Assembly (NCBI GenBank): GCA_963741955.1
Contig: CAVUKB010000001.1
Location: 128,001-192,000, forward strand
Source: an uncultured Acidobacteriota bacterium
GTDB lineage: Bacteria > Acidobacteriota > Thermoanaerobaculia > Gp7-AA8
Length of the DNA stretch: 64,000 bases
Reading direction: 5' to 3'
The notes under the pieces are model-generated. The model did no database searches. It was not told where the DNA came from and was given only the letters and a program-made list of their open reading frames with translations. Positions 1,700 through 54,946 of this stretch are shown piece by piece. A program made the translations under genes and the position numbers. How positions within the stretch are numbered: position 1 is the first letter of the stretch; each line of letters begins with the position of its first letter.

Positions 1700-1863
1700 C
1701 TAGGAGTCTGCGCGGTAGAAACGTCCGTAGCGAGAAAGTGGAGCAGCGAGGCCAAATTCGTTCGGATTTGAGGTTCGTAGCGGCTACTCGCCGAAAAACC
1801 GGACGGATTTGGACCGCTGATCCGTTTTCGCAGTAGGACAGTTTCCATCGCGCAGACTCCTGG
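1700..1863 (-). mobile_element. MITE family A, copy 1
   Basis: TIRs CTAGGAGTCTGCGCGGTAGAAAC ... GTTTCCATCGCGCAGACTCCTGG; interior is the reverse complement of the copies at 4389 and 31551. Confidence 0.88.
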
Positions 1864-2392: not shown

Positions 2393-2626
2393 TTGGCGCA
2401 GCTGATCGTTCGTAATCTCGACGAGTCGCTCGTTCGCGAGCTCAAACAGCGAGCCGTCCGTCATGGGCGCTCGGCGGAGGAAGAGCACCGGCAGATCCTT
2501 CGGGAGGTGCTGCGTCCGAAGCGAAAGAGGCGTTCCCTCAAGGAGCTGCTGACGGCCATGCCCGAGGTTGGAGAGGACGCTGACTTCGAGCGTGCGGACG
2601 ATCGCGGGCGGACGGTCGAGCTATGA
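2393..2626 (+). CDS. FitA-like ribbon-helix-helix antitoxin
   Basis: MAQLIVRNLDESLVRELKQRAVRHGRSAEEEHRQIL; GGAGGAG RBS before TTG; ATGA overlap with the PIN toxin. Confidence 0.9.
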   Translation: MAQLIVRNLDESLVRELKQRAVRHGRSAEEEHRQILREVLRPKRKRRSLKELLTAMPEVGEDADFERADDRGRTVEL

Positions 2627-3036
2627 GCTGGCTGCTGGATACGAACGTGATCTCCGAGATCCGCAAGGGCCCGCGCTGCAATCCGGGTGTCGCGTCGTGG
2701 TGGGCCTCGGTCGCCGACGATGAAATCTTTCTCAGCGTACTCACCACGGGCGAGATCCGGCGGGGAATCGAGAGCATCCGACGAAGAGACCGGAAATCCG
2801 CGGCCGCCCTGGAGAGATGGCTCCGGCAGCTGGTGAAGGACTACTCCGAAAGGCTGCTTCCGATCGATGCGGAAATTGCCGACCAGTGGGCGCGAATGAA
2901 CGTTCCCGATCCGCTTCCGGTGATCGACGGGCTTCTCGCCGCGACTGCGAAGGTTCACGACCTGATCCTGGTGACCCGCAACGCTCGGGACGTCGAGCGC
3001 ACGGAGATTCGGGTTCTCGATCCGTTCACCGCGTGA
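2623..3036 (+). CDS. VapC/FitB PIN-domain toxin
   Basis: WLLDTNVISE, E..RG, IDGLLAATA, LVTRNARD PIN motifs. Confidence 0.93.
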   Translation: MSWLLDTNVISEIRKGPRCNPGVASWWASVADDEIFLSVLTTGEIRRGIESIRRRDRKSAAALERWLRQLVKDYSERLLPIDAEIADQWARMNVPDPLPVIDGLLAATAKVHDLILVTRNARDVERTEIRVLDPFTA

Positions 3037-3357: not shown

Positions 3358-3596
3358 GTTCGTACGAATGCCGGAAGCCGTTCGTACCATTCCACCTCGT
3401 CCACTTCCCGCCGGTCAACTCCGGGACCGCATCGTCGCCTTCGGGATCCTCGGACCCAGTTTGTGATCTCCACCTTCCTTCAGCTTCTGACTCGGACATA
3501 CTCCTCTATCTGACCGGGACCTCCTTCGATGGAGCGCGCGCGAACGGGAACTTCGGGGCGCTCCGGGCGTTGTCTCTGTGGACGCGCGAAAGTCTG

Positions 3597-5231
3597 ATGC
3601 CAGCTGCCCGGAGGAGAGTGCCGACGTTGAAGCGACCAGTCCTGGTTTCCCTTCTTCTTTTCTCGACGCTGCTGCCGATCGGTTGCGCGCACACGGCCGC
3701 AGTGAATCGAGCCGCCACCGGATCGAACGAAGCGCGGATTGCCCGAGAGCTCGACCAGTACCTGACCATTCGCTCGGAGATGGGCGCGTTCAGCGGCGCA
3801 GTCCTCGTGGTCCGCGACGGCAGAACGATCTTCAGAAAGGGCTACGGGTACGCCGACGTCGCCCGGCGAGTCCCTTTCACGCCGGAGACGCGGCACGAGG
3901 TCGCATCCGTCTCGAAGATGTTCACGGCCATGGCTGCCCTGAAGTTGCGCGACGCCGGCAGGCTCACTCTTCAGGACTCGATCTGCCTTCACCTTCCCGA
4001 CTGTCCCGCGCAGTGGAAGCCGATCACGGTCGACGAGCTGATCCACCACACCTCCGGCATCCCCGACTATGAAGAGAAGCTCGGTCTCGGCTCCGAGAAA
4101 TACATGCGGTTCATGGAGGCGCAGGACGCGTCGAAGCGGATTTTCGAGGAAGCGAAGTCGCTCCCTCTCGGCTTCGAGCCGGGTACGAAGTTCGAGTACA
4201 GCAACACCGGCTACATCGTCCTCTCGCACGTAATCGAAAACGCGGCTGGCGAGGCGTTCGAGCGCTTCGTCCGGGAGACGCTTCTCGTTCCCGCCGGGAT
4301 GAGCCGTTCGGGCGTTCTCGGCGCCGGGCCGCTTCCACCCGATCTCGCCATCGGCTACACGCACGACGACCTGGGCTGGGAGCGGACCCTAGGAGTCTGC
4401 GCGGTAGAAACTGTCCTACTGCGAAAGCGGATCAACGGTCCAAATCCGCCCGGATTTTCGGCGAGTAGCCACCGCTACGCACCTCAAATCCGAACGAATT
4501 TGGCCTCGTTGCTCCGCTTCTCGCTACGGACGTTTCTATCGCGCAGACTCCTAGCCGGCGTGCCTCTGACCGAGGAGCATCTCGAGGCGCAGCCGTTCCT
4601 TCCTCTCACGCCCCCCGAAGGAGATGCGTGGCTGTACAGTACGGTCGACGACCTCGCCCGCTGGAGCGAGATCATGGACGGCAGCGCGCTCGTTCCTCCC
4701 GCGGAGGCAGCGGAAGTGTTCACGCCGGAGCAGGACGGCTACGGCGAAGGCTGGTTCATCGGCAACGCCTTCGGTCGGCGGCGCTATCGCCACACCGGCT
4801 CGCTGCCGGGGTACACGACGGACTTCATCGAGTTCCCGGACGACCACCTGACCATCGTCGTCTTCAGCAATCTGGATCGCGCTCCGATGGTTCACATTGT
4901 CCGCAACGTCTCTCTGATCGCACTGGGGATGCCGTACGACATGCCGGTGAGGGGTAAGGTCGTGAAGTTGACTCCGGAAGAGATCGCGCCCCTGGAAGGG
5001 ACCTACAGGATGGCGGACGGGACGGAGGTCGAGATTCGTAACGAGCCGAAGTACCTCACGGCCGACGTCAAGCGGAGATATACTGCCGGCCTCATTCCAC
5101 TCTCGCCGACTCGCTTCTACATGCCCCTCGCCGATGGCATTGTGACCTTCACTCCCGGCCCGGACGAACGAGCGGAGAGCGTGAACCTCCACTACAGCGC
5201 AGAAGACCATGTAGCGCAGCGAATGAAGTAG
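3597..5231 (+). CDS. Serine hydrolase (beta-lactamase/AmpC-like family) lipoprotein carrying an in-frame 54-aa MITE insertion
   Basis: SxxK (ASVSKMF), HHTSGIP, YSNTGY, LYSTVDDL, HTGSLPG; lipobox-like LPIGC; start uncertain. Confidence 0.9.
   Translation: MPAARRRVPTLKRPVLVSLLLFSTLLPIGCAHTAAVNRAATGSNEARIARELDQYLTIRSEMGAFSGAVLVVRDGRTIFRKGYGYADVARRVPFTPETRHEVASVSKMFTAMAALKLRDAGRLTLQDSICLHLPDCPAQWKPITVDELIHHTSGIPDYEEKLGLGSEKYMRFMEAQDASKRIFEEAKSLPLGFEPGTKFEYSNTGYIVLSHVIENAAGEAFERFVRETLLVPAGMSRSGVLGAGPLPPDLAIGYTHDDLGWERTLGVCAVETVLLRKRINGPNPPGFSASSHRYAPQIRTNLASLLRFSLRTFLSRRLLAGVPLTEEHLEAQPFLPLTPPEGDAWLYSTVDDLARWSEIMDGSALVPPAEAAEVFTPEQDGYGEGWFIGNAFGRRRYRHTGSLPGYTTDFIEFPDDHLTIVVFSNLDRAPMVHIVRNVSLIALGMPYDMPVRGKVVKLTPEEIAPLEGTYRMADGTEVEIRNEPKYLTADVKRRYTAGLIPLSPTRFYMPLADGIVTFTPGPDERAESVNLHYSAEDHVAQRMK
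4389..4554 (+). mobile_element. MITE family A, copy 2, in frame inside the serine hydrolase
   Basis: CTAG at 4389 and 4551; TIRs CTAGGAGTCTGCGCGGTAGAAAC / GTTTCTATCGCGCAGACTCCTAG; net insertion 162 nt. Confidence 0.92.
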
Positions 5232-5460: not shown

Positions 5461-5556
5461 CCCCGGGTTACGGCGCGGAGCGCCTTCACCCGGGGCAATT
5501 GTCAATCGCGCCTACGGCGCTGGAAGTTGCGCGAGTGGGAATGGGGGTCGCTTCGT
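5461..5556 (+). repeat. Dispersed repeat family D, copy 2
   Basis: CCCCGGGTTACGGCGCGGAGCGCCTTCACCCGGGGCAATTGTCAATCGCGCCTACGGCGCTGG. Confidence 0.8.
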
Positions 5557-5657
5557 CGTGAAGGTCCACCAAAGTCCTGCACGGATGTCGCGGGGCCGTG
5601 ACGGGAGACGATCTTCCCGCGGACACTCCTCTGGTATCCTTGCCCGCGGAGAAAACC

Positions 5658-7835
5658 ATGAAACGACTCCTGATCGCGAGCTGTGCCGCCTTCCTCTCCG
5701 TCGCCTCATTCGCTGCATCCGGCCATCCCGACTCCAGCACCCCCCCTCCGAAGCAGCCCGGCGGCAGCCAGTATCCCACCGCGCACCGCTCGGATCACGT
5801 CGACACGTACTTCGGCGTCAAGGTCGCCGATCCGTACCGCTGGATGGAGAACATCGACTCCCCGGATGTTCAGAAGTGGATCGCGGCCGAGAACGCGCTG
5901 ACACTCCCCTATCTGAAGAAGCTTCCCGGACAGACCTGGTTGAAGGACCGGCTGACGAAGCTCTGGAAGTACGAGCGCTACGGAGTTCCGCTCCAGCGCG
6001 GCGGGCGCTTTTTCTACACCCACAATGACGGGCTTCAGGATCAGGACGTCCTCTTCGTCGCCGAGCGCCCCGAGGCAGAGGGGAAGGTGCTCCTCGATCC
6101 GAACACCTTCAGCAAGGACGGCACGGTCGCACTCGCGCGGTGGACCCCGAGCTGGAACGGTAAGCTGCTGGCCTACGGCACTTCCGACGGCGGAACCGAC
6201 TGGACGACGTTTCACGTTGTCGACGTCGACAGCGGCACGAAACTCGATGACCTGATTCGATTCACGAAGTTCACCGACGTTTCCTGGGCGCACGACGACG
6301 GCGGCTTCTATTACAGTCGCTACCCGCTCGACGCGGAAGGACACGCGGACGAATCGAAAGCGGTGAGCGTCTTCTTCCACAAGCTCGGCACTCCGCAGAG
6401 CTCCGACCGCGAGATCTACGCTCTGCCGAAGGAACCGAAACACGATCCGTACGCCATGGTCACCGAAGACGGCGGGTACCTGATCGTCGACGTCCAGCAG
6501 GGGTACGACTCGAACGCCATCCACGTGATTCCTCTGAAGGAGGGCAAGCCGGGCGCCGCGATCCGCCTCTTCGACCAGTGGGATGCGCTCTACCGATTCG
6601 TCGGCAACAAGGGCTCCCTGCTGTACTTTTCGACCACCCGCAACGCGCCGCGGGGGAGGGTGATCGCGGTCGATCTCCGGCATCCGGATCCGGATCAATG
6701 GACCGAGGTGGTTCCGGAGCAGAGCGAGACGCTGAGCGAGGCGGAATACACGGGTGGAGAGTTCTTCGCCCAGTATCTCGAGGATGCGCACTCGCGGATC
6801 CGCGTCTGGGGCGCGGACGGCGAACACCTCCGGGACGTCGAGCTCCCGGGGCTCGGGAGCGCGGCCGGTTTTGCCGGGCCCGACGACGCCAAGGTGACGT
6901 TCTACAGCTACACGAGCTTCACGACGCCGCCGACGATCTACCAGTACGACATCGCCAGCGGCAAGAGCAGCATCGATCGGAAACCGGACGTGCCGGTGAA
7001 AGACCTCGACTCGTTCGAGGTACAGCAGGTGTTCTATCCCAGCAAGGACGGCACGAAGATCCCGATGTTCATCGTGCACCGGAAGGGGTTGAAGCTCGAC
7101 GGAACGGCACCCACCCTCCTCTACGGCTACGGCGGGTTCGACATCTCACTGACTCCGACCTACAGCCTCGCGCGGATCGTCTGGCTGGAGATGGGAGGGG
7201 TGTACGCGATGCCGAACCTCCGCGGGGGAGGGGAGTACGGCGAGGCGTGGCACGAAGCCGGAACGAAGCTGCACAAGCAGAACGTGTTCGACGACTTCAT
7301 CGCGGCGGCGAAGTACCTCGAAAAGGAGGGCTACACGAGCCCCTCCAGGCTCGCCATCAGCGGAGCGTCCAACGGAGGGCTGCTGATCGGCGCGGTGCTC
7401 AACCAGCAGCCGCAGTTGTTCGGAGCCGCTCTTCCCGCGGTCGGCGTGATGGACATGCTCCGGTACCAGACCGCGAGCGCGAATGCGGAGGGGTGGTCGA
7501 GCGACTTCGGCAAGTCGACCGACAGCAGGGAGATGTTCGAGGCGCTGCGGGCGTTCTCGCCAGTTCACAACACGCGCGAGAAAGGATGCTTTCCGCCGAC
7601 CCTGATCACCACCGCGGATCACGACAACCGCGTGGTGCCGTGGTACAGCTTCAAGTACGCGGCGGCGATGCAGCACGCGCAGAGCTGCGCGAACCCGGTG
7701 CTGATCCGTATCGAGACCCGTGCCGGGCACGGAGCCGGGAAGCCGACCTGGATGAAGATCGAAGAGATCGCCGACGAGTACGCGTTCCTTGCGAAGGCGC
7801 TCGGCATCCCGATGCCGCCGCAGACGAAGCCGTGA
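5658..7835 (+). CDS. Secreted prolyl oligopeptidase (S9A)
   Basis: Signal peptide; DPYRWME, YGYGGF, NLRGGGEYG, GASNGG (Ser), ADHDNRV (Asp), AGHGAGK (His). Confidence 0.96.
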   Translation: MKRLLIASCAAFLSVASFAASGHPDSSTPPPKQPGGSQYPTAHRSDHVDTYFGVKVADPYRWMENIDSPDVQKWIAAENALTLPYLKKLPGQTWLKDRLTKLWKYERYGVPLQRGGRFFYTHNDGLQDQDVLFVAERPEAEGKVLLDPNTFSKDGTVALARWTPSWNGKLLAYGTSDGGTDWTTFHVVDVDSGTKLDDLIRFTKFTDVSWAHDDGGFYYSRYPLDAEGHADESKAVSVFFHKLGTPQSSDREIYALPKEPKHDPYAMVTEDGGYLIVDVQQGYDSNAIHVIPLKEGKPGAAIRLFDQWDALYRFVGNKGSLLYFSTTRNAPRGRVIAVDLRHPDPDQWTEVVPEQSETLSEAEYTGGEFFAQYLEDAHSRIRVWGADGEHLRDVELPGLGSAAGFAGPDDAKVTFYSYTSFTTPPTIYQYDIASGKSSIDRKPDVPVKDLDSFEVQQVFYPSKDGTKIPMFIVHRKGLKLDGTAPTLLYGYGGFDISLTPTYSLARIVWLEMGGVYAMPNLRGGGEYGEAWHEAGTKLHKQNVFDDFIAAAKYLEKEGYTSPSRLAISGASNGGLLIGAVLNQQPQLFGAALPAVGVMDMLRYQTASANAEGWSSDFGKSTDSREMFEALRAFSPVHNTREKGCFPPTLITTADHDNRVVPWYSFKYAAAMQHAQSCANPVLIRIETRAGHGAGKPTWMKIEEIADEYAFLAKALGIPMPPQTKP

Positions 7836-7842
7836 ACGCGAA

Positions 7843-7945
7843 CCCCGGGTTCCGGCGCGGAGGGCCTCCAGCTGGGGCAATCGTCCATCGCGTCTGCGGC
7901 GCTTGGGGTCGTGCGGGAGGGAGTGGAGCGTGCTTTGCGGGGACG
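7843..7945 (+). repeat. Dispersed repeat family D, copy 3 (diverged)
   Basis: CCCCGGGTTCCGGCGCGGAGGGCCTCCAGCTGGGGCAATCGTCCATCGCG, directly after the S9 stop. Confidence 0.72.
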
Positions 7946-7979
7946 GTGCCGGTGGCCTCGGTGAGGAATCTGAGTTTCA

Positions 7980-10247: not shown

Positions 10248-10549
10248 CCTGATCCATTCGAGCGTCATCACGTGCGACAGCGTCGCCTCCCACACCGCCT
10301 GCATCTGCTCGCCCTTGAAGAGAGCGCGATCGAAGTGTCACTGGGTCAGTGGATTATGAGAGAGAACCGACAGGCGAAGGCCTGACCCCCCCGTCGATCC
10401 TGATCCATTCGAGCGTCATCACGTGCGACAGCGTCGCCTCCCACACCGCCTGCATCTGCTCGCCCTTGAAGAGAGCGCGACCGAAGTGTCACTGGGTCAG
10501 TGGATTATGAGAGAGAACCGACAGGCGACGGCCTGACCCCCCCGTCGAT
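10248..10549 (+). repeat. Direct tandem duplication, 2 x 151 bp
   Basis: CCTGATCCATTCGAGCGTCATC... starts at 10248 and 10399; about two substitutions between copies. Confidence 0.9.
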
Positions 10550-10685: not shown

Positions 10686-10787
10686 CCCCGGGTTCTGGCG
10701 CGGAGCGCCTTCACCCGGGCAATTGTCAATCGCGCCTACGGCGCCTGGAGTCGCGCGAGTGTGGGTGGAGGTCGCTTCGTGGGGACG
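10686..10787 (+). repeat. Dispersed repeat family D, copy 4
   Basis: CCCCGGGTTCTGGCGCGGAGCGCCTTCACCCGGGCAATTGTCAATCGCGCCTACGGCGCCTGG. Confidence 0.8.
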
Positions 10788-10833
10788 ATTCACCGAAGTC
10801 CTGGAGTACGGAGGTCGAGACCTCGGCCGCTCA

Positions 10834-20038: not shown

Positions 20039-20184
20039 GGCATCCTCCTTCGTGGTGAAAGGTCGATCACTCATTGTAGATGAGGCGCGGCGAAGATGGG
20101 AGCGATTGCGGCAGAGACGGCGTGTCTGTTCGGGGCGCGGATCGCGCTCGGCGGTATGCGCACTGCACGGTACCGTGTCACCAT

Positions 20185-20475
20185 GGGGTGCGGATCCCGC
20201 TCGGCGGGATCCGCCGCGAGAATCGTGTTGTACGCGATGAAGACAGAGACTGAGGGTTTCGCGAAGCGTCGGTCGTTCTTGCGCCCCCGCTTCGCTTCTG
20301 CCACATGGCGAGGGGCGGCACCGCTCGGCGTCCGAAAGGCGCATGTGCCTGGGGTGCAGGTTTCGCGAAGCGTCGGTGACGCTGGCGTCAAACTCCGCTT
20401 CAGCCAACGACGCGGGTGATGCTGCCGTCGCGCATGCGCCGTGATCCGCGCGGCGGATTGCGAATCCGCACTCCA
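20185..20475 (+). repeat. Solitary degenerate copy of the 39.5-kb array unit (REP doublet)
   Basis: GGGGTGCGGATCCCGCTCGGCGGGATCCGCCGCGAGAATCGTGTTGTACGCGATGAAG ... CGCGCATGCGCCGTGATCCGCGCGGCGGAT. Confidence 0.8.
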
Positions 20476-20500
20476 ATCGCACCCCGCAATCCACGCCACG

Positions 20501-25231: not shown

Positions 25232-25474
25232 ATGGCAACGAAGGCAAAGAAAGCAGCAAAGAGACCCGCGAAGAAGGCAGCGAAGAAGCCTGCCGCCAAG
25301 AAGGCCGCGAAGAAGACTGCACGGAAGCCAGCTGCGAAGAAGGCTGCGAAGCGCCCTGCCAAGAAGGCCGCGAAGAAGACCGCGCGGAAGCCAGCTGCAA
25401 AGAAGGCTGCAAAGCGCCCCGCAAAGAAGTCCGCTGCGAAACGATCCTCGAAGAAGACCGCTGCCAAGAAGTAA
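25232..25474 (+). CDS. Histone H1-like Lys/Ala-rich nucleoid protein
   Basis: 80 aa of PAKKAAKK repeats, strong RBS, own terminator. Confidence 0.9.
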   Translation: MATKAKKAAKRPAKKAAKKPAAKKAAKKTARKPAAKKAAKRPAKKAAKKTARKPAAKKAAKRPAKKSAAKRSSKKTAAKK

Positions 25475-29384: not shown

Positions 29385-30950
29385 ATGAAGCGACTATACT
29401 CGACGGCAGGGACGGGTGCGATTCTCATCTGGGCGGCGATCGTCTTTGCGCAGACTACCTCGACCGCCACGCTCAGCTTGCCCGGCTCCCAGCGCACCAT
29501 CGCGACGGTGGAGTCGAACGGCCGAACGTTCTTCTCGGCCGATGACGTGGTGACTGCACTCGGCGGAACGGTCACCTCCGACAATCACGGGTTTCTCGCC
29601 ACGATCGGAGATCAGCAGGCTGCGTTCGGTCCGGACACACGATTCGGCGTCGTCCGGGACGACCTGATCGAGATGCCGGTCGAGCCGATGGTCGTCGACG
29701 GTCGTGCCTACGTACCATGGCAGTTCTTTCAGGGAGTGCTCCAGAAATCCTCCAATCAACAGGTGAGCTGGGACGCAACGAATCGGATTCTTGCCATACG
29801 GCCTTCACCCAAGCAGACGCTCAACGCACAGCTTTCGCTGGTGGACCTCGGCGGGCTCTCGAAGCTCGTGATCCAGCTCTCGGGAAAGAGCGACTACGAC
29901 GTGTCGCGGGAGCGCGACTACTACGCGATCCGTTTCAAGTCGCCGATACAGGCGCCGCCCGAGCAGTCGTTCGACGATCCGCTCGTCACGCGGATGGTCT
30001 CCCGGAACAACGAGATCGACGTCTGGTTCGCGTCACCCGAGGTGACTGCGACGTCGTACAGTCTGGAGAAGCCGTTCCGGGTCGTGCTCGATTTCAGGAA
30101 AGGCGTCCCGGAGCTCAAGCCCGGAGTGACGCTGCAGACCCCTCTCGCAGTGCCGAATGCGAAGCCGGCTGGAATCCGGACCATCGTCCTCGACCCGGGT
30201 CACGGCGGGAAGGAAGTCGGCGCGATCGGACCGTCGGGGCTGATGGAAAAGGACGCCACGCTGGAGCTCTGCAGGCGTCTTCAGAACCTTCTCACGTCGC
30301 GTCTCGGCGTCCGGGTGGTGCTCACTCGTGACGACGACTCGGTCGTTCCGCTCGAGCAGCGCACCGCCGTGGCGAACCAGTACAAGGCGGATCTCTTTCT
30401 CTCCGTCCACATGAATGCCGCAACGGTGAAGGGGGCGAAGGGAACCGAAACGTACTTCCTCTCTCTCGACGCGTCCGACGAAGTTGCGAGACGTGCAGCG
30501 GAGATCGAGAACGCGTCGGCGAGCTCTGCGCCGGGAGGGAAGTCGGACCTGAAGATGATCCTCTGGGATCTCGCACAGCAGGAGTACCTCAACGAGTCGC
30601 ATCGTCTCGCCGTCGACGTTCAGGACGAGATGAACACTCTCGCAGGGATCCAGGGTCGTGGCGTGAAGCAGGCTCCGTTCAAGGTTCTGGTCGGAGCGAC
30701 GATGCCCGCTGCGCTGGTGGAAGTCGCGTTCATCACCAACCCCGACGAAGAGGCGAAGCTCCGGAGCGATCGGTTCCAGGAGCAGGCAGCGGATGCACTC
30801 GAGCACGCGATCGCGAAATTCAAGAGCGAGTACGAGGCACGGATCGGTCTCGGCGGCCCGGAGACATCCGGGCGAGCCGCAGCGCCAGCCGCCGCGGCAG
30901 CACCTCCCCCCGCATCTCCAGCACCGTCGAAGAAGTCCGGGAGCTCCTGA
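29385..30950 (+). CDS. N-acetylmuramoyl-L-alanine amidase (Amidase_3)
   Basis: IVLDPGHGG, EKD, LTRDDD, FLSVHMNA, GTETYFL, PAALVEVAFITN. Confidence 0.95.
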   Translation: MKRLYSTAGTGAILIWAAIVFAQTTSTATLSLPGSQRTIATVESNGRTFFSADDVVTALGGTVTSDNHGFLATIGDQQAAFGPDTRFGVVRDDLIEMPVEPMVVDGRAYVPWQFFQGVLQKSSNQQVSWDATNRILAIRPSPKQTLNAQLSLVDLGGLSKLVIQLSGKSDYDVSRERDYYAIRFKSPIQAPPEQSFDDPLVTRMVSRNNEIDVWFASPEVTATSYSLEKPFRVVLDFRKGVPELKPGVTLQTPLAVPNAKPAGIRTIVLDPGHGGKEVGAIGPSGLMEKDATLELCRRLQNLLTSRLGVRVVLTRDDDSVVPLEQRTAVANQYKADLFLSVHMNAATVKGAKGTETYFLSLDASDEVARRAAEIENASASSAPGGKSDLKMILWDLAQQEYLNESHRLAVDVQDEMNTLAGIQGRGVKQAPFKVLVGATMPAALVEVAFITNPDEEAKLRSDRFQEQAADALEHAIAKFKSEYEARIGLGGPETSGRAAAPAAAAAPPPASPAPSKKSGSS

Positions 30951-30951
30951 C

Positions 30952-31554
30952 GTGCGCGCAGAGAAGAAGTCTTTCCTCATTATTTTCGTCGCGGCCGTGG
31001 CTCTGGTCGTGGCGTGCTCGCGTGGTTCGCGCAACAACTCCGAAGTCGTATCCGCTCGCGTGCGGGAAGCGAACAAGGTCGCCACCCGCGCGGTGACGCT
31101 CTACTTCGAGTCGCCGGATCTCGTGCTCGTCCCCGAGAAGCGCAACGTCGCGCTCCCGGAGAGCGACGTCGCGGCGGTCTCCACCGTCGTTCGTGAATTG
31201 CTCGCCGGCTCCTCGAACGCTGCGGTCGCGAGATCGTTCCCGAAGGATGCCGCCCTTCGTGGCGCATTCCTTCTTTCCGACGGGACGGCGATCATCGATC
31301 TCGGCGGCGACACTCTCGCCACGGGCTGGAACACCGGGAGCCACGAAGAGTTGATGGCGGTCTATTCGCTGGTGCAGACTCTGATGGACAACTTCCCCTC
31401 GGTGAAGCGGGTCAGGATTCTCGTCAACGGCCAGCCGGCTCCGACTCTCGCGGGCCACGTCGCCATCGATCACGCGCTGAAACCTCTGACCTGGCTCGTC
31501 GCCGCACAGCCCCCCGCACCGGCCGCGCCACAGCCTCCTCAAGAGGGGCGCTAG
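30952..31554 (+). CDS. GerMN domain lipoprotein
   Basis: LVVAC lipobox, TLYF, ELLAG, VYSLVQTL, VRILVNGQ..TLAGHV; stop TAG lies in the MITE CTAG. Confidence 0.9.
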   Translation: MRAEKKSFLIIFVAAVALVVACSRGSRNNSEVVSARVREANKVATRAVTLYFESPDLVLVPEKRNVALPESDVAAVSTVVRELLAGSSNAAVARSFPKDAALRGAFLLSDGTAIIDLGGDTLATGWNTGSHEELMAVYSLVQTLMDNFPSVKRVRILVNGQPAPTLAGHVAIDHALKPLTWLVAAQPPAPAAPQPPQEGR

Positions 31555-31717
31555 GAGTCTGCGCGGTAGAAACTGTCCTACTGCGAAAGCGGATCAACGG
31601 TCCAAATCGGTCCGGATTTTCGGCGAGTAGCCACCGCTACGCACCTCAAATCCGAACGAATTTGGCCTCGCTGCTCCGCTCTCTCGCTACGGACGTTTCT
31701 ACCGCGCAGACTCCTAG
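31551..31717 (+). mobile_element. MITE family A, copy 3
   Basis: CTAG-bounded; perfect 23-bp TIR CTAGGAGTCTGCGCGGTAGAAAC / GTTTCTACCGCGCAGACTCCTAG. Confidence 0.92.
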
Positions 31718-31945
31718 CCCCAATGGCCCGAACTTGAGGGGCGCTGTGGGTGTTCAGAGAGCAGATGCGCGGAGTTACTACGCATCTGCCGCAGGTGGCG
31801 TCTCGTTGCGTTCTGAAGGCGATCTGCGCGGCCACGGCGGGAGCCGGGGCGCCCCTCGGAGAGGGGATCCTTCGCTGCCCAGCAAGCTCGCGTCGACTCC
31901 CGGCTGACACGCTGATTTTGCTCAAGTTCGGGCCATTGTCTTTAG
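31714..31945 (+). mobile_element. MITE family B, full copy
   Basis: CTAG...TTAG borders; 18-bp perfect IR CAATGGCCCGAACTTGAG / CTCAAGTTCGGGCCATTG. Confidence 0.85.
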
Positions 31946-32126
31946 CCCGCATTTCTCACACCGCCTCGACGCGGGGAGGCGGAGAGCGGCTTGGATACAA
32001 GGCGCGCGCAACTTCGGCGACGAAGGCATAGTGGTGACTATGTTGAGGAGCCGAAGATGTGCGCAACGTAGTAGACAGGCCGCTATCCGTCTCCGCAGCA
32101 AAGACGATGTGAGAAATGCGGGCTAG
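31942..32126 (+). mobile_element. MITE family C
   Basis: TTAG...CTAG borders; 18-bp perfect TIR TAGCCCGCATTTCTCACA / TGTGAGAAATGCGGGCTA; central CATAGT..ACTATG hairpin. Confidence 0.85.
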
Positions 32127-32284
32127 GAGTCTGCGCGATAGAAACCGTCCTACTGCGAAAGCGGATCAACGGTCCAAATCCGCCCGGATTTTCGGCGAGT
32201 AGCCACCGCGTGGCGCCCCTCGGAGAGGGGATCCTTCGCTGCCCAGCAAGCTCGCGACGAGACGGTGTGAGAAATGCGGCCTAA
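32123..32284 (+). mobile_element. Chimeric MITE: A left half + B interior + C right end
   Basis: 32123-32209 matches A, 32209-32256 matches B (GGCGCCCCTCGGAGAGGGGATCCTTCGCTGCCCAGCAAGCTCGCG), end GGTGTGAGAAATGCGGCCTAA matches C. Confidence 0.82.
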
Positions 32285-32311
32285 GAACACGGCTGAGACT
32301 GGTAAGCGCCT

Positions 32312-32373
32312 CTGTCACAGTCCTGTTACACACGTGAAATTTTTCACAATGTCGTGCGGATCCTTCGTATAAT
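32312..32373 (+). promoter_or_regulatory. Promoter with Pho-box-like direct repeat, CRP/Rex-like palindrome and TATAAT
   Basis: CTGTCAC-N4-CTGTTAC at 32312-32329; CGTGA-N6-TCACA at 32333-32348; TATAAT at 32368-32373. Confidence 0.65.
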
Positions 32374-32380
32374 CGTCCTC

Positions 32381-32562
32381 GAAAAGAAAACTGGATGGGC
32401 AGACAAGGAATTTGCTTCCCTGGTAATTGCCTGCCGATACCTGATGAAAATCAGTCCTGACATCCGCAGTTAAGCCCATCACAAAAAGCCAACCTCCCCA
32501 GCGTTCCGGAAGGCTCATCCAGTGAGAATCAGCCCCGGCCGAAAGGCCGGGGCGGTTTTTTT
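32381..32562 (+). ncRNA. Candidate ~180-nt small RNA
   Basis: Lies between TATAAT and a terminator; ACTGGATGGGC (32390-32400) pairs with GCTCATCCAGT (32513-32523); internal CTGAT-GAAA-ATCAG hairpin. Confidence 0.55.
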
Positions 32563-39443: not shown

Positions 39444-39499
39444 GCCGTCGGAGCCCGCCCGGATTTGTCGCGCCGCATTCCGCGGGACGAGAGCCCACG

Positions 39500-40743
39500 G
39501 ATCCCTCCGCGCGGTTCGAGCTTTACGGAAACTGTGGATCCTGCCGAGGGGTGCGGATCCCGCTCGGCGGGATCTGCCGCGCAAAAAGTGTTCTACGCGA
39601 ACTGTGGATCCCGCCGAGGGGTGCGGATCATCCGATCCGCCGCGAGAATCGTGTTGTACGCGATGAAGAGCGCGGCTGTGGGTCTCGCGAAGCGTCGTTC
39701 TTCTTGCGCCCCGCTCCGCTTCTGCCCGGGGCGCGGGTGAGGCTGCGTTCGCGCATGCGCCATGATCCGCGCGGCGGATCAGAGGATCCGCTCCCCACGA
39801 CGAACGTGGATCCCGCCGAGGGGTGCGGATCCCGCTCGGCGGGATCTGCCGCGAGAACCGTGTTGTACGCGATGAAGAGCGCGGCTGTGGGTCTCGCGAA
39901 GCGTCGGTCTTCTTGCGCACCGCTCCGCTTCTGCCCGGGGCGCGGGTGAGGCTGCGGTCGCGCACGCGCCGTGATCCGCGCGGCGGATCAGAGGATCCGC
40001 TCCCCACGACGAACGTGGATCCCGCCGCGCGGTTCGAGCTGTACGCGAACTGTGGATCCCGCCGAGGGGTGCGGATCCCGCCCCGCGGGATCCGCCGCGA
40101 GAATCGTGTTGTACGCGATGAAGAGCGCGGCTGTGAGTCTCGCGAAGCGTCGGTCTTCTTGCGCCCCGCTCCGCTTCTGCCCGGGGCGCGGGTGAGGCTG
40201 CGGTCGCGCACGCGCCGTGATCCGCTCGGCGGATCAGAGGATCCGCTCCCCACGACGAACGTGATCCCTCCGCGCGGTTCGAGCTGTACGCGAACTGTGG
40301 ATCCCGCCGAGGGGTGCGGATCCCGCCCCGCGGGATCCGCCGCGAGAACCGTGTTGTACGCGATGAAGGCGGAGGCTGTGGATCACGCGAAGCGTCGGTC
40401 TTCTTGCGCCCCGCTCCGCTTCTGCCCGGGGCGCGGGTGAGGCTGCGGTCGCGCACGCGCCGTGATCCGCTCGGCGGATCAGAGGATCCGCTCCCCACGA
40501 CGAACGTGATCCCTCCGCGCGGTTCGAGCTGTACGCGAACTGTGGATCCCGCCGAGGGGTGCGGATCATCCGATCCGCCGCGAGAACCGTGTTGTACGCG
40601 ATGAAGAGCGCGGCTGTGGGTCTCGCGAAGCGTCGTCGATGCTTCCGCCCCCGCTGCGCTTCTGCCGCGGACGCCGGTGAGGCTGCGGTCGCGCACGCGC
40701 CGTGACTGGCGCGGCGGATCAGAGGATCCGCTCCCCACGACGA
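39500..40743 (+). repeat. Tandem REP-doublet (BIME-like) array A: about 5 units of ~210-245 bp plus a partial unit
   Basis: GGATCAGAGGATCCGCTCCCCACGACG recurs five times (near 39776, 39986, 40231, 40476, 40716). Confidence 0.93.
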
Positions 40744-46065: not shown

Positions 46066-47280
46066 ATGGCGGTCGTGAACGGGAAAAAGCCCGGCAGAAC
46101 CGGCAAAAAAGGTAACGCCAGGAACGTGAAACCCGCAAAGAAGTCGTCGGGCGCGCGTCCGGCGTCGAAATCGGCAGCGAAAAAGCCCGCAAAAAAGGCA
46201 ACGAAGCCGAAGAGCGCTGCGAAGTCGCGTAAAGCGCCGGCCGCAGCAAAAGTGAGCCCGAAGTCGACGAAGCGCGCCACCGCAGCCCGGGACGCCAGGA
46301 AGTCCGCGCCCAGATCCGCGAAGAAGTCCGCCCCGAAGAAACCAGCGGTGAAGAAGTCTCCGGCGAAGAAGTCTCCGGCAAAGAAGGTCGCGGGGAAGAA
46401 GGCTGCGGTCAAGAACCGAGCCGCGAAGAAGGCTCCGGTCAAGAAAGCCCCGGCGAAGAAAGCCCCGGCGAAACCGGCGAAGAAGCCCTCCGCGAAGAAA
46501 GCCGCAGATTCGAAGGCAGCCGCGAAGAAAGCGGGCTCCCGCACGACCCCGCGCAAGCCTGAAACGAAGGCGAAGCGGGCCGGCGCGAAGGACGACGGCA
46601 CGAAGAGCGCGCGGCGTTCCGAGCGGAAAGAGCAGAGCAAGTCCGCTCCGGCGTCTGTCGAGCCGTCAGCAGAAGCGACCAGCCCGAAGACACCGAAGAC
46701 GCGGAGCACTCCCGGGGAACCGAAGCGCCCGCGGCGATCCCGCCTCCGCTACGTCGAGTCGGACCAGCCTTCGGCTGCATGGTTTCCGCAGAACGACACG
46801 GGACGGAGATTCGCTTCCTTCATTCCCGCCCCGATGCGACTGGAAGCACCCTCGACCACCGCTGCGCCGCCGGCTTCGGCAGACCGGGAGTTTCTCCCGG
46901 GCGACATCGAGACTCCGACCAAGGCGATCCGGGTGATTCCGATCCGCGTGGAGATCGAGCAGGCGGGCGGACGAACGCAGATCTTTCTCACCCCGGTCGA
47001 GCAGCCGATCCATCAGGGCGAAGGGCTGGAGTGGGACTTCCGCTATTTCGGGGCGGCCGACGTCGTGATCCAGAACATCGTGATCGAGTTCGACAAGCCG
47101 TCGCCATTCACGAAGACGACGTTCGCGTCGCCCAAGCCGGGAGGAGCGAGGCCGCACCGGCAGGTGTCAGGCCCGCTTCGTGCCGAGCTCGCGCCGGGAC
47201 GTCGGGACTACGAGATCCGGGCGTTCGACCTGGTCAGGCGGCAGGTCGCCAGCGCAAAGGGGACGCTCGTCGTCGAGTAG
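46066..47280 (+). CDS. Protein with a histone H1-like Lys/Ala-rich N-half and a globular beta-rich C-domain
   Basis: KKSPAKK/KKAPAKK repeats over about 200 aa, then an ordered C-terminal domain; GAGGT RBS. Confidence 0.82.
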   Translation: MAVVNGKKPGRTGKKGNARNVKPAKKSSGARPASKSAAKKPAKKATKPKSAAKSRKAPAAAKVSPKSTKRATAARDARKSAPRSAKKSAPKKPAVKKSPAKKSPAKKVAGKKAAVKNRAAKKAPVKKAPAKKAPAKPAKKPSAKKAADSKAAAKKAGSRTTPRKPETKAKRAGAKDDGTKSARRSERKEQSKSAPASVEPSAEATSPKTPKTRSTPGEPKRPRRSRLRYVESDQPSAAWFPQNDTGRRFASFIPAPMRLEAPSTTAAPPASADREFLPGDIETPTKAIRVIPIRVEIEQAGGRTQIFLTPVEQPIHQGEGLEWDFRYFGAADVVIQNIVIEFDKPSPFTKTTFASPKPGGARPHRQVSGPLRAELAPGRRDYEIRAFDLVRRQVASAKGTLVVE

Positions 47281-47304: not shown

Positions 47305-49344
47305 GATTGTGGGGGTGCAGATCCTCCGATCTGCGGCGGGAATCGCGTTCGAGCGCAATGAGACGACGCCGTTGGCAGCGGCGCAGCCGCTCTCCTGACA
47401 ATCGCGATTCACACCGACGCTCCGCGCAGAGCCGGATTCTCCGTCTTCCCCGGCTTCGATACGATTCTCGCGGCGGATCAGAGGATCCGCGCCCCCTCGG
47501 GAGTGATGCGCTTTGTGGGGTGCAGATCCTCCGATCTGCGGCGGGAATCGTGTTCGAGCGCAATGAGACGACGCCGTTGGCAGCGGCGCAGCCGCTCTCG
47601 GGACAATCGCGATTCACACCGACGCTCCGCGCAGAGCCGGACTCTCCGTCTTCCCCGGCTTCGACACGATTCTCGCGGCGGATCAGAGGATCCGCACCCC
47701 TCGGGAGTGATGCGCTTTGTGGGGGTGCAGATCCTCCGATCTGCGGCGGGAATCGCGTTCGAGCGCAATGGGACGACGCCGTTGGCAGCGGCGCAGCCGC
47801 TCTCCTGACAATCGCGATTCACACTGACGCTCCGCGCAGAGCCGGACTCTCCGTCTTCGTCGGCTTCGATACGATTCTCGCGGCGGATCAGAGGATCCGC
47901 ACCCCTCCGGAGTGATGCGCTTTGTGGGGGTGCAGATCCTCCGATCTGCGGCGGGAATCGCGTTCGAGCGCAATGGGACGGCGGCGTCGGCCGAGGCGCA
48001 GCCGCTTTCGTGACAATCGCGATTCACACCGACGCTCCGCGCAGAGCCGGACTCTCCGTCTTCCCCGGCTTCGATACGATTCTCGCGGCGGATCAGAGGA
48101 TCCGCACCCCTCGGGAGTGATGCGCTTTGTGGGGGTGCAGATCCTCCGATCTGCGGCGGGAATCGCGTTCGAGCGCAATGAGACGACGCCGTTGGCAGCG
48201 GCGCAGCCGCTCTCCTGACAATCGCGATTCACACCGACGCTCTGCGCAGAGCCGGATTCTCCGTCTTCGTCGGCTTCGACACGATGATCACGGCGGATCA
48301 GAGGATCCGCGCCCCTCGGGAGTGAACCGGATTGTGGGGTGCAGATCCTCCGATCTGCGGCGGGAATCGCGTTCGAGCGCAATGAGACGACGCCGTCGGC
48401 CGAGGCGAAGCCGCTTTCGGGACAATCGCGATTCACACTGACGCTCCGCGCAGAGCCGGATTCTCCGTCTTCCCCGGCTTCGACACGATGATCAAGGCGG
48501 ATCAGAGGATCCGCGCCCCCTCGGGAGCGAACCGCTTTGTGGGGTGCAGATCCTCCGATCTGCGGCGGAAATCGCGTTCGAGCGCAATGAGACGACGCCG
48601 TTGGCAGCGGCGCAGCCGCTCTCCTGACAATCGCGATTCACACTGACGCTCTGCGCAGAGCCGGATTCTCCGTCTTCCCCGGCTTCGGTACGATTCTCAC
48701 GGCGGATCAGAGGATCCGCACCCCTCGGGAGTGATGCGCTTTGTGGGGGTGCAGATCCTCCGATCTGCGGCGGGAATCGTGTTCGAGCGCAATGAGACGA
48801 CGCCGTTGGCAGCGGCGCAGCCGCTCTCCTGACAATCGCGATTCACACTGACGCTCCGCGCAGAGCCGGATTCTCCGTCTTCCCCGGCTTCGACACGATG
48901 ATCACGGCGGATCAGAGGATCCGCGCCCCCTCGGGAGCGAACCGCTTTGTGGGGTGCAGATCCTCCGATCTGCGGCGGGAATCGCGTTCGAGCGCAATGG
49001 GACCGCGGCGTCGGCCGAGGCGAAGCCGCTTTCGGGACAATCGCGATTCACACCGACGCTCCGCGCAGAGCCGGACTCTCCGTCTTCGTCGGCTTCGACA
49101 CGATGATCAAGGCGGATCAGAGGATCCGCGCCCCCTCGGGAGTGATGCGCTTTGTGGGGGTGCAGATCCTCCGATCTGCGGCGGAAATCGCGTTCGAGCG
49201 CAATGAGACGACGCCGTTGGCAGAGGCGCAGCCGCTCTCCTGACAATCGCGATTCACACCGACGCTCCGCGCAGAGCCGGACTCTCCGTCTTCGTCGGCT
49301 TCGACACGATGATCACGGCGGATCAGAGGATCCGCGCCCCTCGG
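47305..49344 (+). repeat. Tandem REP-doublet array B1: 10 units of 204-206 bp
   Basis: Anchor GCAGATCCTCCGATC at 47317, 47522, 47727, 47932, 48137, 48341, 48546, 48751, 48956, 49162. Confidence 0.97.
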
Positions 49345-49381
49345 CCCGAGTCCTCGAGGTGCGAATCCCGCCGAGCTCCCC

Positions 49382-52642
<3,261 letters not shown>

Positions 52643-53788: not shown

Positions 53789-54926
53789 CTCGGGAGCGAA
53801 CCGGATTGTGGGGGTGCAGATCCTCCGATCTGCGGCGGAAATCGTGTTCGAGCGCAATGGGACGGCGGCGTCGGCCGAGGCGAAGCCGCTTTCGTGACAA
53901 CCGCGATTCACACCGACGCTCCGCGCAGAGCCGGACTCTCCGTCTTCGTCGGCTTCGACACGATGATCACGGCGGATCAGAGGATCCGCGCCCCCTCGGG
54001 AGTGATGCGCTTTGTGGGGTGCAGATCCTCCGATCTGCGGCGGGAATCGCGTTCGAGCGCAATGAGACGGCGGCGTCGGCCGAGGCGAAGCCGCTTTCGG
54101 GACAATCGCGATTCACACCGACGCTCCGCGCAGAGCCGGACTCTCCGTCTTCGTCGGCTTCGACACGATGATCACGGCGGATCAGAGGATCCGCGCCCCT
54201 CGGGAGCGAACCGGATTGTGGGGGTGCAGATCCTCCGATCTGCGGCGGGAATCGCGTTCGAGCGCAATGGGACCGCGGCGTCGGCCGAGGCGAAGCCGCT
54301 TTCGTGACAACCGCGATTCACACCGACGCTCCGCGCAGAGCCGGACTCTCCGTCTTCGTCGGCTTCGACACGATGATCACGGCGGATCAGAGGATCCGCG
54401 CCCCCTCGGGAGCGAAGCGGATTGTGGGGTGCAGATCCTCCGATCTGCGGCGGAAATCGCGTTCGAGCGCAATGGGACCGCGGCGTCGGCCGAGGCGAAG
54501 CCGCTTTCGGGACAATCGCGATTCACACTGACGCTCCGCGCAGAGCCGGATTCTCCGTCTTCGTCGGCTTCGACACGATGATCACGGCGGATCAGAGGAT
54601 CCGCGCCCCCTCGGGAGCGAACCGCTTTGTGGGGTGCAGATCCTCCGATCTGCGGCGAGAATCGCGTTCGAGCGCAATGAGACGACGCCGTCGGCCGAGG
54701 CGCAGCCGCTCTCCTGACAATCGCGATTCACACCGACGCTCCGCGCAGAGCCGGACTCTCCGTCTTCGCCGGCTTCGACACGATGATCACGGCGGATCAG
54801 AGGATCCGCGCCCCCTCGGGAGCGAAGCGGATTGTGGGGTGCAGATCCTCCGATCTGCGGCGGAAATCGTGTTCGAGCGCAATGGGACGACGGCGTCGGC
54901 CGAGGCGAAGCCGCTTTCGTGACAAC
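53789..54926 (+). repeat. Tandem REP-doublet array B2: 5 full plus 1 partial 205-bp units, same family as B1
   Basis: Anchor at 53816, 54021, 54226, 54431, 54636, 54841. Confidence 0.96.
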
Positions 54927-54946
54927 CGGCGCCCGCGCGCTGCCCT

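What the first reader, a model, noticed from the sequence alone, without database searches (positions are those of the whole stretch)
4389..4554. Palindromic MITE inserted in frame into a serine hydrolase, adding 54 aa (RPE-like behaviour)
Seen: a 162-nt net insertion between two CTAGs with 23-bp TIRs leaves the ORF open and adds GVCAVETVLLRKRINGPNPPGFSASSHRYAPQIRTNLASLLRFSLRTFLSRRLL. Removing it restores ..WERTLAGVPLT... The same element is intergenic at 1700, 31551 and 32123, and copy 3 is 163 nt net. All catalytic motifs remain. Known: Rickettsia palindromic elements create new peptide segments this way. Inference: an independent, possibly undescribed RPE-like family in this lineage.
Basis: partly seen in the sequence, partly recalled or inferred. 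Interest (0 to 1): 0.8.

Follow-up and report, generated by a model that had tools for sequence, protein, structure and literature searches.

The report
Mobile palindrome inserted in-frame in hydrolase
A small hairpin-forming mobile DNA element has landed inside a serine hydrolase gene without breaking its reading frame and adds 54 amino acids, which is a clean example of a phenomenon already known from other bacteria.

Summary
Window 4389-4554 is one copy of a ~166-bp palindromic MITE. Two more full copies (1700, 31551) and a half copy (32123) are in the window. It sits in a PF00144 serine hydrolase ORF (3570-5231). All 120 homologs examined lack exactly these 54 residues, and the flanks rejoin to the family consensus GWE..LAGVPLT.

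The element is a non-autonomous relative of ISKpn6-like IS1182-family insertion sequences. It shares their terminal repeats and their CTA...TAG flanks.

The family is not built for in-frame insertion. The commonest net length is 163 nt, and only 4 of 26 copies are a multiple of 3. Only 1 of 6 frames of this copy is stop-free. The other coding-region hits found (a cytochrome c, a DUF4259 protein, a possible VTT-domain protein) are frameshifting or tail-replacing. The hydrolase copy stays in frame because it alone, of 11 aligned copies, lacks one base.

The added peptide is basic (pI 12) and predicted disordered. It splits a conserved block between invariant W270 and G330, and its codon composition marks it as recent. 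Whether the enzyme still works is not shown.

Verdict: a real in-frame MITE insertion that behaves like an RPE in this one instance only. It is a new member of a known kind.

The parts
3570..5231 (+). Serine hydrolase ORF (beta-lactamase/transpeptidase-like 'CubicO' type with a C-terminal beta domain). It is 553 aa from the first TTG. The real start is probably further in (ATG 3597 or GTG 3618), ahead of a signal-peptide or lipobox-like stretch LLPIGC.
   Evidence: PF00144 E=7.6e-61, residues 70-440. 1140 homologs at E<=1e-10, the best 57% identical by BLASTP. AF2 mean pLDDT 80.9. Foldseek best hits 7spn and 2qmi. The start and lipobox are read from the sequence by eye.
4389..4554 (+). MITE copy inside the ORF, including both flanking CTAGs. 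Net insertion 162 nt.
   Evidence: RNA fold -101.8 kcal/mol, z = -13.8. GC3 0.59 against 0.81 and 0.80 in the host gene on either side.
4389..4411 (+). Left terminal inverted repeat, CTAG included.
4532..4554 (-). Right terminal inverted repeat, CTAG included. 22 of 23 positions match the left one.
4392..4553 (+). The 54 added codons, GVCAVETV...SRRLL. pI 12.0, with 8 Arg, 1 Lys and 1 Glu.
   Evidence: pLDDT <50 and coil for residues 275-327.
4519..4520 (+). Site of the single missing base (CCGCT-TCTCG). This makes the copy 162 nt rather than 163.
   Evidence: Alignment A3: this copy alone of 11 has a gap here. Also seen in A1. The copies translated in P0121, P0122, P0123 and P0131 leave in the 163-type frame ...TAQTP.
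3906..3917 (+). SxxK motif (Ser113-Val-Ser-Lys116).
4197..4205 (+). YxN motif (Tyr210-Ser-Asn212).
4791..4799 (+). HxG motif (His408-Thr-Gly410), the counterpart of KTG.
31551..31717 (+). Second full copy, net 163 nt and 97% identical. Its left CTAG holds the stop codon of ORF 30793-31554.
1700..1863 (-). Third full copy, net 160 nt and 91% identical. One flank has mutated to CTGG. It lies between a methyltransferase gene and a PIN-domain gene.
32123..32209 (+). Half copy: the left arm only, cut off by another repeat.

Best explanation
The element is a non-autonomous miniature transposon (MITE). It has about 160 bp between its ends, folds into one long hairpin, and carries no transposase.

Inferred mechanism: a transposase of an ISKpn6-like IS1182-family insertion sequence moves it in trans and inserts it at the rare tetranucleotide CTAG.

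Here it landed in a CTA(Leu)-G site of a secreted or lipoprotein-type serine hydrolase gene, in the one orientation and frame that has no stop codon. This copy lacks one base relative to its relatives, so the net insertion is 162 nt. The downstream reading frame is therefore kept.

The predicted product is the intact enzyme with an extra 54-residue, strongly basic, probably disordered segment. The segment lies between invariant Trp270 and Gly330, downstream of the YxN motif and upstream of the HxG motif.

Shown: the insertion, its mobile origin, its absence from homologs, the kept frame, its recent date, and the unique 1-nt deletion.

Inferred: mobilisation in trans; that the deletion, or the choice of a 162-nt variant, was retained because selection keeps the hydrolase open; and that the protein tolerates the segment.
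For: Mobile origin
- There are 7 terminal-repeat matches in the window against 0 expected. Copies are 91-97% identical.
- Four loci (L019, L026, L033, L042) hold 1.49-1.57-kb elements bounded by these repeats. Their ORFs share 56-68% identity by tblastn. The two scanned (L042, L026) score NF033551, IS1182-family transposase, at 2.5e-111 and 1.1e-102.
- ISKpn6 in a K. pneumoniae plasmid has 17 of 20 identical repeat positions and the same CTA/TAG flanks.
- CTA...TAG lies on both sides of 17 of 26 MITE-sized copies and 4 of 4 full insertion sequences.

Insertion in the gene
- 120 of 120 homologs lack the 54 residues (also 29 of 29).

Recent date
- 97% identity to copy 31551. GC3 is 0.59 in the insert against 0.81 and 0.80 in the host gene.

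Frame rescue
- Only 1 of 6 frames is stop-free.
- The inner length is 161 (net 163) in 15 of 26 copies, and only 4 of 26 are multiples of 3.
- This copy is the only one of 11 aligned with a gap at 4519/4520.

Host protein
- All columns that are invariant in the 30-sequence alignment, on both sides of the insert, are by definition kept in the window protein.
- In the AF2 model both halves are confident (pLDDT mostly >85) and the insert is below 50.
Against: - No transposase is present in the 64-kb window. The source genome was not among the fetched loci, so an autonomous partner in this organism is not shown.
- The insert splits a conserved block rather than a variable loop: W270 and G330 are 120/120 conserved, L328 110/120 and L333 117/120. 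This argues that function may be impaired.
- The missing base lies in a short T/CT run. No reads are available, so a sequencing or assembly error cannot be excluded.
- This exact protein, read from ATG 3597, is not in the 15-billion-protein collection. No homolog above 57% BLASTP identity (65% in the alignment) was found. So there is no empty-site or sister-strain comparison.
- A single case gives only weak statistical support for selection.
Confidence: 0.85

Rival explanations
1. The gene is effectively dead. The insertion is a recent, unpurged hit that inactivates the hydrolase. The open frame is either luck or a one-base error in the assembly, and no selection is involved.
For: - The insert lies between invariant W270 and G330, in a conserved block.
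- It is recent: 97% identical to another copy, with GC3 0.59 against 0.80. The lack of decay in the rest of the gene therefore says little.
- The frame depends on one base in a short T/CT run.
- The -102 kcal/mol hairpin would sit inside the mRNA. From recalled knowledge of Correia elements and RNase III, such hairpins can be cleaved.
- The other coding-region copies found are frame-breaking.
Against: - A 1-nt loss occurs in the only mid-gene copy and in none of the 10 other aligned copies. The four translated copies in P0121, P0122, P0123 and P0131 also lack it. This would be a coincidence of roughly 1 in 10 if indels fell at random among copies.
- Both enzyme halves and all three catalytic motifs are intact.
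- The AF2 model still packs both halves confidently.
Confidence: 0.3
2. One reading: this is an RPE-like family whose members are adapted to sit in frame inside genes and regularly create new peptide segments in this lineage.
For: - One clean internal in-frame case.
- The stop-free frame LGVCA...RRLL is also open in copies from other Acidobacteriota genomes (L023, L061).
- It is also open in a related family seen as two tandem 54-aa units in P0125.
- The same frame is translated into a cytochrome c tail (P0121) and a DUF4259 protein (P0131).
- The full-length palindrome is like that of RPEs.
Against: - The commonest net length is 163 nt, and only 4 of 26 copies are a multiple of 3.
- One of 4 window copies lies in a gene.
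- None of the 6 long spanning frames scanned from other loci has a Pfam domain. Those 6 were chosen out of 18 frames of at least 100 aa listed.
- A HMMER pass over 1.84 billion representative proteins found only 9 hits at E<=0.001, and only 3 at E<=1e-10.
- The word-indexed search of longer proteins found 4.
- None of those is an internal in-frame segment.
Confidence: 0.08
3. The 54 residues are a native, lineage-specific loop or domain of this hydrolase, and the similar intergenic sequences derive from it.
For: None beyond the open frame.
Against: - Absent from 120 of 120 homologs.
- Bounded by the terminal repeats and CTAG flanks shared with transposase-bearing insertion sequences.
- GC3 0.59 against 0.80.
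- Copies lie in unrelated contexts and in other genomes.
Confidence: 0.01

Closest known systems
Rickettsia palindromic elements (RPE)
   Same: A palindromic element of about 150-165 bp lies in frame inside a metabolic enzyme gene and adds a peptide while the host reading frame survives. The RPE description comes from a passage of review PMC10969869.
   Different: - The homolog names point to Acidobacteriota/Thermoanaerobaculia, not Rickettsia.
- The element has clear terminal repeats, target flanks and a transposase-bearing relative.
- The family's commonest length is not a multiple of 3.
- Only one internal in-frame case was found.
- Sequence similarity to RPEs was not tested, because no RPE sequence was on hand.
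ISKpn6 and other IS1182-family insertion sequences
   Same: The terminal repeats match ISKpn6 at 17 of 20 positions, and match ~1.5-kb IS1182-family elements of Halovibrio, Pseudomonadales and Tepidiformaceae genomes exactly. The CTA...TAG flanks are the same.
   Different: There is no transposase gene. It is 160 bp instead of about 1.5 kb, and the interior is a near-perfect hairpin. The element is a non-autonomous derivative, not an insertion sequence.
Other bacterial MITEs that fuse to genes (Coxiella QMITE1/QMITE2, intragenic ERIC, Correia elements)
   Same: A small element with terminal repeats overlaps ORFs, gives basic peptides, and sometimes makes in-frame internal or C-terminal fusions. 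This is from passages of PMC5896051 and PMC10969869. Here the peptide has pI 12.0.
   Different: The parent insertion-sequence family, the target (CTAG) and the host phylum all differ. Correia and RNase III properties are recalled and not checked here.
CubicO / Pab87-type penicillin-binding-protein-like peptidases and esterases (PDB 2qmi, 7spn, 1ei5)
   Same: The host protein shares the PF00144 fold plus a C-terminal beta domain, with the SxxK, YxN and HxG motifs.
   Different: It carries the 54-aa mobile-element segment. Its substrate is unknown. It is not a clinical class C beta-lactamase, because all NCBIfam class C models score far below their cut-offs.

Membership tests
[quoted passage not shown] | Terminal inverted repeats | tested here: met
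   23-bp repeats matching at 22 of 23 positions. 7 matches in the window against 0 in shuffles.
[quoted passage not shown] | Small size and no transposase gene | tested here: met
   166 nt. tblastn with two IS1182-family transposases finds nothing in the window.
[quoted passage not shown] | Multiple dispersed copies with target-site flanks | tested here: met
   3 full copies and 1 half copy in the window. CTA...TAG on both sides of 17 of 26 MITE-sized copies. It cannot be told whether the duplication is TA or CTAG, because CTAG is itself a palindrome.
[quoted passage not shown] | An autonomous element with the same ends | tested here: met
   ~1.5-kb elements in L019, L026, L033 and L042 are bounded by the same repeats, and the two scanned (L042, L026) carry NF033551 transposases. 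They were found in other organisms only. Presence in the source genome cannot be tested from 64 kb.
IS1182-family (ISKpn6-like) derivative | Ends and flanks like named family members | tested here: met
   ISKpn6 in L069 spans 587-2126 (1540 bp), has 17 of 20 identical repeat positions and has CTA/TAG flanks. The record annotates an 'IS1182-like element ISKpn6 family transposase'.
IS1182-family (ISKpn6-like) derivative | Mobilised by that transposase | not testable with these tools
   This needs a transposition or binding assay.
Rickettsia palindromic elements (RPE) | Found in Rickettsia, with sequence similarity to the RPE families | not tested
   No RPE sequence was on hand. The host is not Rickettsia: the best homologs are named Acidobacteriota, Thermoanaerobaculia or Pyrinomonadaceae.
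Rickettsia palindromic elements (RPE) | A large share of copies inserted in frame in protein genes | tested here: not met
   1 of 4 window copies. 4 of 26 copies have a length divisible by 3. No further internal in-frame case appeared.
Rickettsia palindromic elements (RPE) | Palindromic over the whole length | tested here: met
   MFE -101.8 kcal/mol, z = -13.8. 48 consensus pairs, 96.6% of cells paired.
Beta-lactamase/transpeptidase-like serine hydrolase (PF00144) | Domain match and the SxxK, YxN and H/KxG motifs | tested here: met
   PF00144 at 206.5 bits against a cut-off of 27. Motifs at residues 113, 210 and 408 in invariant columns.
Class C beta-lactamase (resistance enzyme) | Reaches NCBIfam's class C model cut-off | tested here: not met
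   NF033085 scores 52 bits against a cut-off of 415.

The most novel reading that the evidence does not exclude
The ~161-bp full-hairpin elements with ISKpn6-type ends may form one cross-phylum MITE superfamily, found in Acidobacteriota, Woeseiaceae and other Gammaproteobacteria. Its length and whole-length hairpin would be actively maintained: 11 of 48 pairs show changes on both sides. That would imply a structure-dependent step in IS1182-type transposition, or a hairpin function of its own. In Thermoanaerobaculia these elements, followed by one-base frame-restoring mutations, would be a recurrent source of new protein segments such as the hydrolase loop and the cytochrome c tail.
Probability: 0.15. 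Interest if true: 0.55.

Novelty: new member of a known kind. Interest (0 to 1): 0.35.

Why it matters
This is a clean, datable example outside the intracellular bacteria of a mobile palindrome becoming part of an enzyme's coding sequence. A visible one-base change rescued the frame. It also links a MITE group found in Acidobacteriota and Gammaproteobacteria genomes to the IS1182/ISKpn6 type of insertion sequence.

My two literature searches found no paper describing that link. The six papers holding both 'IS1182' and 'miniature inverted-repeat' do not mention it in the listed titles or abstract starts.

For annotation, the gene should be called as one ORF with a mobile-element insert, not as a novel domain. 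It does not change the general picture of how MITEs affect genes.

Tried and rejected
- **Rfam:** no family matches anywhere in the window at gathering thresholds.
- **Plasmid collection:** blastn with the element against 72,556 plasmids gave no match.
- **Source genome:** megablast of the window against the 68 fetched loci gave nothing.
- **In-frame copies in other genomes:** one search listed 18 stop-free frames of at least 100 aa spanning an element. I scanned the 6 longest from loci with Pfam and found 0 families. The other 12 were not scanned, and most look like arginine-rich high-GC artefacts.
- **Peptide searches:** these gave 4 hits and 9 hits. P0126-P0130 are weak, multi-stretch matches. 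P0127 and P0129, the two I read, are tandem-repeat proteins, and I discarded all five.
- **Exact look-up:** the ORF read from ATG 3597 is not in the collection. The GTG and TTG starts were not looked up, because the reference would translate them as V or L.
- **Literature on the ISKpn6 target duplication:** PMC10132070 turned out to concern ISKpn65/IS1202, and PMC13277301 was irrelevant. That ISKpn6 is listed as 1540 bp with a TA duplication is my recollection. I measured the 1540 bp between GGAG and CTCC.
- **Distance to Ser113:** the distance from the insertion site could not be measured, because model coordinates are not exposed.
Full report
**What is in the sequence**

ORF 3570-5231 (+) encodes a 553-aa protein. 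It matches Pfam PF00144, Beta-lactamase, at E=7.6e-61, with a weak DUF3471 match at the C-terminus.

Inside it, 4389-4554 begins and ends with CTAG. It carries 23-bp terminal inverted repeats that match at 22 of 23 positions. The stretch folds into a single long hairpin as RNA, at -101.8 kcal/mol. The shuffle mean is -47.3 and z = -13.8.

blastn finds further copies in the window (sequences):
- 31551-31717: 97% identical, net 163 nt.
- 1700-1863, minus strand: 91% identical, net 160 nt, one flank mutated to CTGG.
- 32123-32209: a left-arm half copy.

The 23-mer occurs 7 times at up to 3 mismatches, against 0 in all 100 shuffles.

**The insertion in the gene**

A search of the 5.8-billion-protein collection gave 1140 homologs at E<=1e-10. 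The 120 listed are 431-508 aa long, and the best is 57% identical by BLASTP.

In a MAFFT alignment with 29 of them, all 29 show a clean 54-column gap. The window protein reads GWERT-[54 aa]-LAGVPLT, where the family consensus is GWEKxLAGVPLT. When all 120 are aligned in a script, 120 of 120 lack the segment.

The pre-insertion DNA would read ...ACC CTA GCC..., so the target CTAG sat as a Leu codon plus G.

SVSK (113), YSN (210) and HTG (408) are present, with Ser113, Lys116, Tyr210, Asn212, His408 and Gly410 in invariant columns.

The insert has GC3 of 0.59, against 0.81 upstream and 0.80 downstream in the host gene. It is 97% identical to another copy. It is therefore foreign and recent.

**What the element is**

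They come from Acidobacteriota, several Gammaproteobacteria (Woeseiaceae, Pseudomonadales, Marinobacter, Halovibrio), Binatota, Chloroflexota and others.

Pairing the repeats gave these classes:
- 4 elements of 1493-1570 bp (L019, L026, L033, L042).
- 26 pairs of 156-163 bp, counting the three window copies.
- One element of 120 bp and one of 259 bp.

The long elements each carry a ~440-aa ORF, and the four share 56-68% identity by tblastn. The two scanned (L042, L026) match NF033551, IS1182-family transposase, at 2.5e-111 and 1.1e-102, above the 270-bit cut-off. They also match the Pfam DDE_Tnp_1 and DUF772 domains.

blastn of one of them against plasmids hits elements annotated as ISKpn6. 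In a K. pneumoniae plasmid, ISKpn6 spans 1540 bp between GGAG and CTCC. It shares 17 of 20 repeat positions and has the same CTA/TAG flanks.

CTA...TAG lies on both sides of 17 of 26 MITE-sized copies and 4 of 4 long elements.

No transposase is in the window. The source genome is not among the loci.

The element is therefore a MITE of the ISKpn6-like IS1182 type. CTAG is palindromic, so I cannot tell whether TA or CTAG is duplicated. Either way the net gain is inner length plus 2.

CTAG is scarce in the window. There are 13 sites, against 38 expected from a second-order model and 213 from base composition. Six of the 13 are MITE termini.

**Hairpin conservation**

Eleven copies were aligned: the three from the window and eight from five Acidobacteriota genomes. 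The eight are 73-79% identical to the window copy over its full length. They share a 48-pair consensus hairpin, and 11 pairs show changes on both sides.

On that structure 96.6% of cells pair, against 33-48% when partners are slid by 1-3 columns. None of 500 shuffles reaches the observed covariation score.

The tool warns that related sequences can beat the shuffles without any structure. The structure was also derived from these same sequences. I therefore read this only as saying that the palindrome is maintained across sub-families, not as proof of an RNA function.

MITE-sized elements with the same ends but different interiors also fold as strong hairpins in Gammaproteobacteria (-62 to -125 kcal/mol).

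**Is the family 'RPE-like'?**

Only one of the six frames of the hydrolase copy is stop-free. That is the frame used.

Inner length is 161 in 15 of 26 copies, 162 in 5, 160 in 2, 163 in 2, 158 in 1 and 156 in 1. The commonest net insertion is therefore 163 nt, and only 4 of 26 are multiples of 3.

In the 11-copy alignment, the hydrolase copy alone has a gap at CCGCT-TCTCG, between 4519 and 4520. That single missing base turns a frame-breaking 163 into 162.

Searching the 55-aa translation against longer proteins found 4 hits. A full HMMER pass over 1.84 billion representatives found 9 at E<=0.001, and 3 at E<=1e-10. The informative ones are these:
- P0121: a cytochrome c whose domain ends where the element begins. 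The element then supplies a new tail in the 163-type exit frame (...TAQTP).
- P0131 and the partial P0124: a weak DUF4259 match (below the Pfam cut-off), with the element followed by a frameshifted tail.
- P0123: a weak VTT-domain match, truncated by the element.
- P0122: no recognisable family.
- P0125: two tandem 54-aa translations of a related family.

None of these is an internal in-frame segment.

Among the other loci, the 6 longest stop-free frames spanning an element, out of 18 frames of at least 100 aa, have no Pfam domain.

So the hydrolase case is, as far as I could see, a one-off. These censuses are incomplete.

**Effect on the protein**

The added peptide has pI 12.0, with 8 Arg, 1 Lys and 1 Glu.

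An AlphaFold2 model built on the 30-sequence alignment has mean pLDDT 80.9. Both halves are confident, and only residues 1-22 and 275-327 fall below 50 and are modelled as coil.

Foldseek places the model with two-domain PBP-like hydrolases: esterase IS11 (7spn), Pab87 (2qmi), SurE (6ksu) and D-aminopeptidase (1ei5). Sequence search of the PDB agrees.

Against easy tolerance, the site is not a variable loop. W270 and G330 are 120/120 conserved, L328 110/120 and L333 117/120. I could not measure the distance to Ser113 because coordinates are not exposed.

Whether the enzyme is active, or even made, is open. From recalled knowledge of Correia elements and RNase III, a hairpin of this strength in the mRNA may itself lower expression.

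**Most likely history (inference)**

A 163-nt copy, or an already shortened 162-nt variant, inserted at CTA-G in the open orientation. Only the version with the one-base loss survived, because it keeps the hydrolase frame.

The alternative is that the gene is a fresh casualty and the open frame is luck or a one-base assembly error. I give that about 0.3.

**Comparison with what is known**

A passage of review PMC10969869 states that in-frame fusions by intragenic MITEs are 'not unusual', and that RPEs are the extreme case, with 44 insertions in R. conorii. Passages of PMC5896051 describe in-frame and C-terminal fusions and basic peptides from Coxiella QMITEs.

The present case works like an RPE insertion in this one gene. 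It fails the family-level trait of frequent in-frame insertion and is not in Rickettsia. Sequence similarity to RPEs was not tested.

Two literature searches did not turn up a description of ISKpn6-type MITEs. For both I saw listings only.

**Verdict**

This is a new member of a known kind, of moderate to low interest. The frame-restoring one-base deletion and the cross-phylum ISKpn6-type hairpin MITE group are the points worth a follow-up.

Noticed in passing
window 30793-31554 and 31551-31554: The TAG stop codon of a Germane-domain (PF10646) ORF lies inside the left CTAG of MITE copy 31551. The element therefore inserted exactly at a stop-codon CTAG, and the gene keeps its stop.
   Followed up: partly
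window 31555-32528: This intergenic stretch is a pile-up of nested palindromic elements. One has 18-bp ends CAATGGCCCGAACTTGAG (31721-31938). Another has ends TAGCCCGCATTTCTCACAC (31943-32125, with a second right end at 32253-32289). A 52-nt segment is repeated at 31845 and 32209. The half MITE at 32123-32209 is cut off by that segment and bracketed by a ~27-nt direct repeat (32102 and 32260).
   Followed up: partly
whole window: CTAG is strongly depleted: 13 sites against 38 (second-order) or 213 (base composition) expected. 6 of the 13 are MITE termini, so free targets for this element are rare.
   Followed up: yes
window 47305-49456 and 53804-54930: Two arrays of ~205-bp tandem repeats, with 10 and 5 copies at 66-96% identity. 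They are probably repeated protein domains.
   Followed up: no
window 39499-40743, with partial relatives at 20136-20482: A tandem array of ~245-bp units, about 5 copies at up to 100% identity over 95 nt. Its nature is unknown.
   Followed up: no
window 5490-5579, 7872-7961, 10714-10803: A 90-nt repeat (63-83% identity) recurs just upstream or downstream of genes around the prolyl oligopeptidase gene at 5598-7835. It may be another small repeat family.
   Followed up: no
window 10248-10549; 60277-60950: A 151-bp exact tandem duplication (99%), and a cluster of 266-bp-spaced repeats near 60.3-60.9 kb.
   Followed up: no
window 25246-25461 and 46315-46532: Lys/Ala-rich AAGAAG-type 12-15-nt coding repeats lie in two places, possibly histone-like or KKAA-repeat proteins.
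   Followed up: no
window 2623-3036: A PIN-domain (PF01850) ORF, probably a VapC-type toxin. The partner gene was not looked for.
   Followed up: no
L005, L011, L027, L046, L056, L058, L068 (Gammaproteobacteria bacterium Milos-ODIII6); L003, L007, L010, L065 (Woeseiaceae): MITEs of the same length class (inner length 160-162 bp) and with the same ends, but with unrelated interiors, are multi-copy in gammaproteobacterial genomes. Many terminal-repeat hits lie at contig ends, as expected for repeats that break assemblies.
   Followed up: partly
P0125 (protein from the representative library): A predicted 220-aa protein starts with two tandem 54-aa units about 50% identical to the MITE peptide. 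This implies tandem 162-nt elements of a related family, open in the same frame.
   Followed up: no
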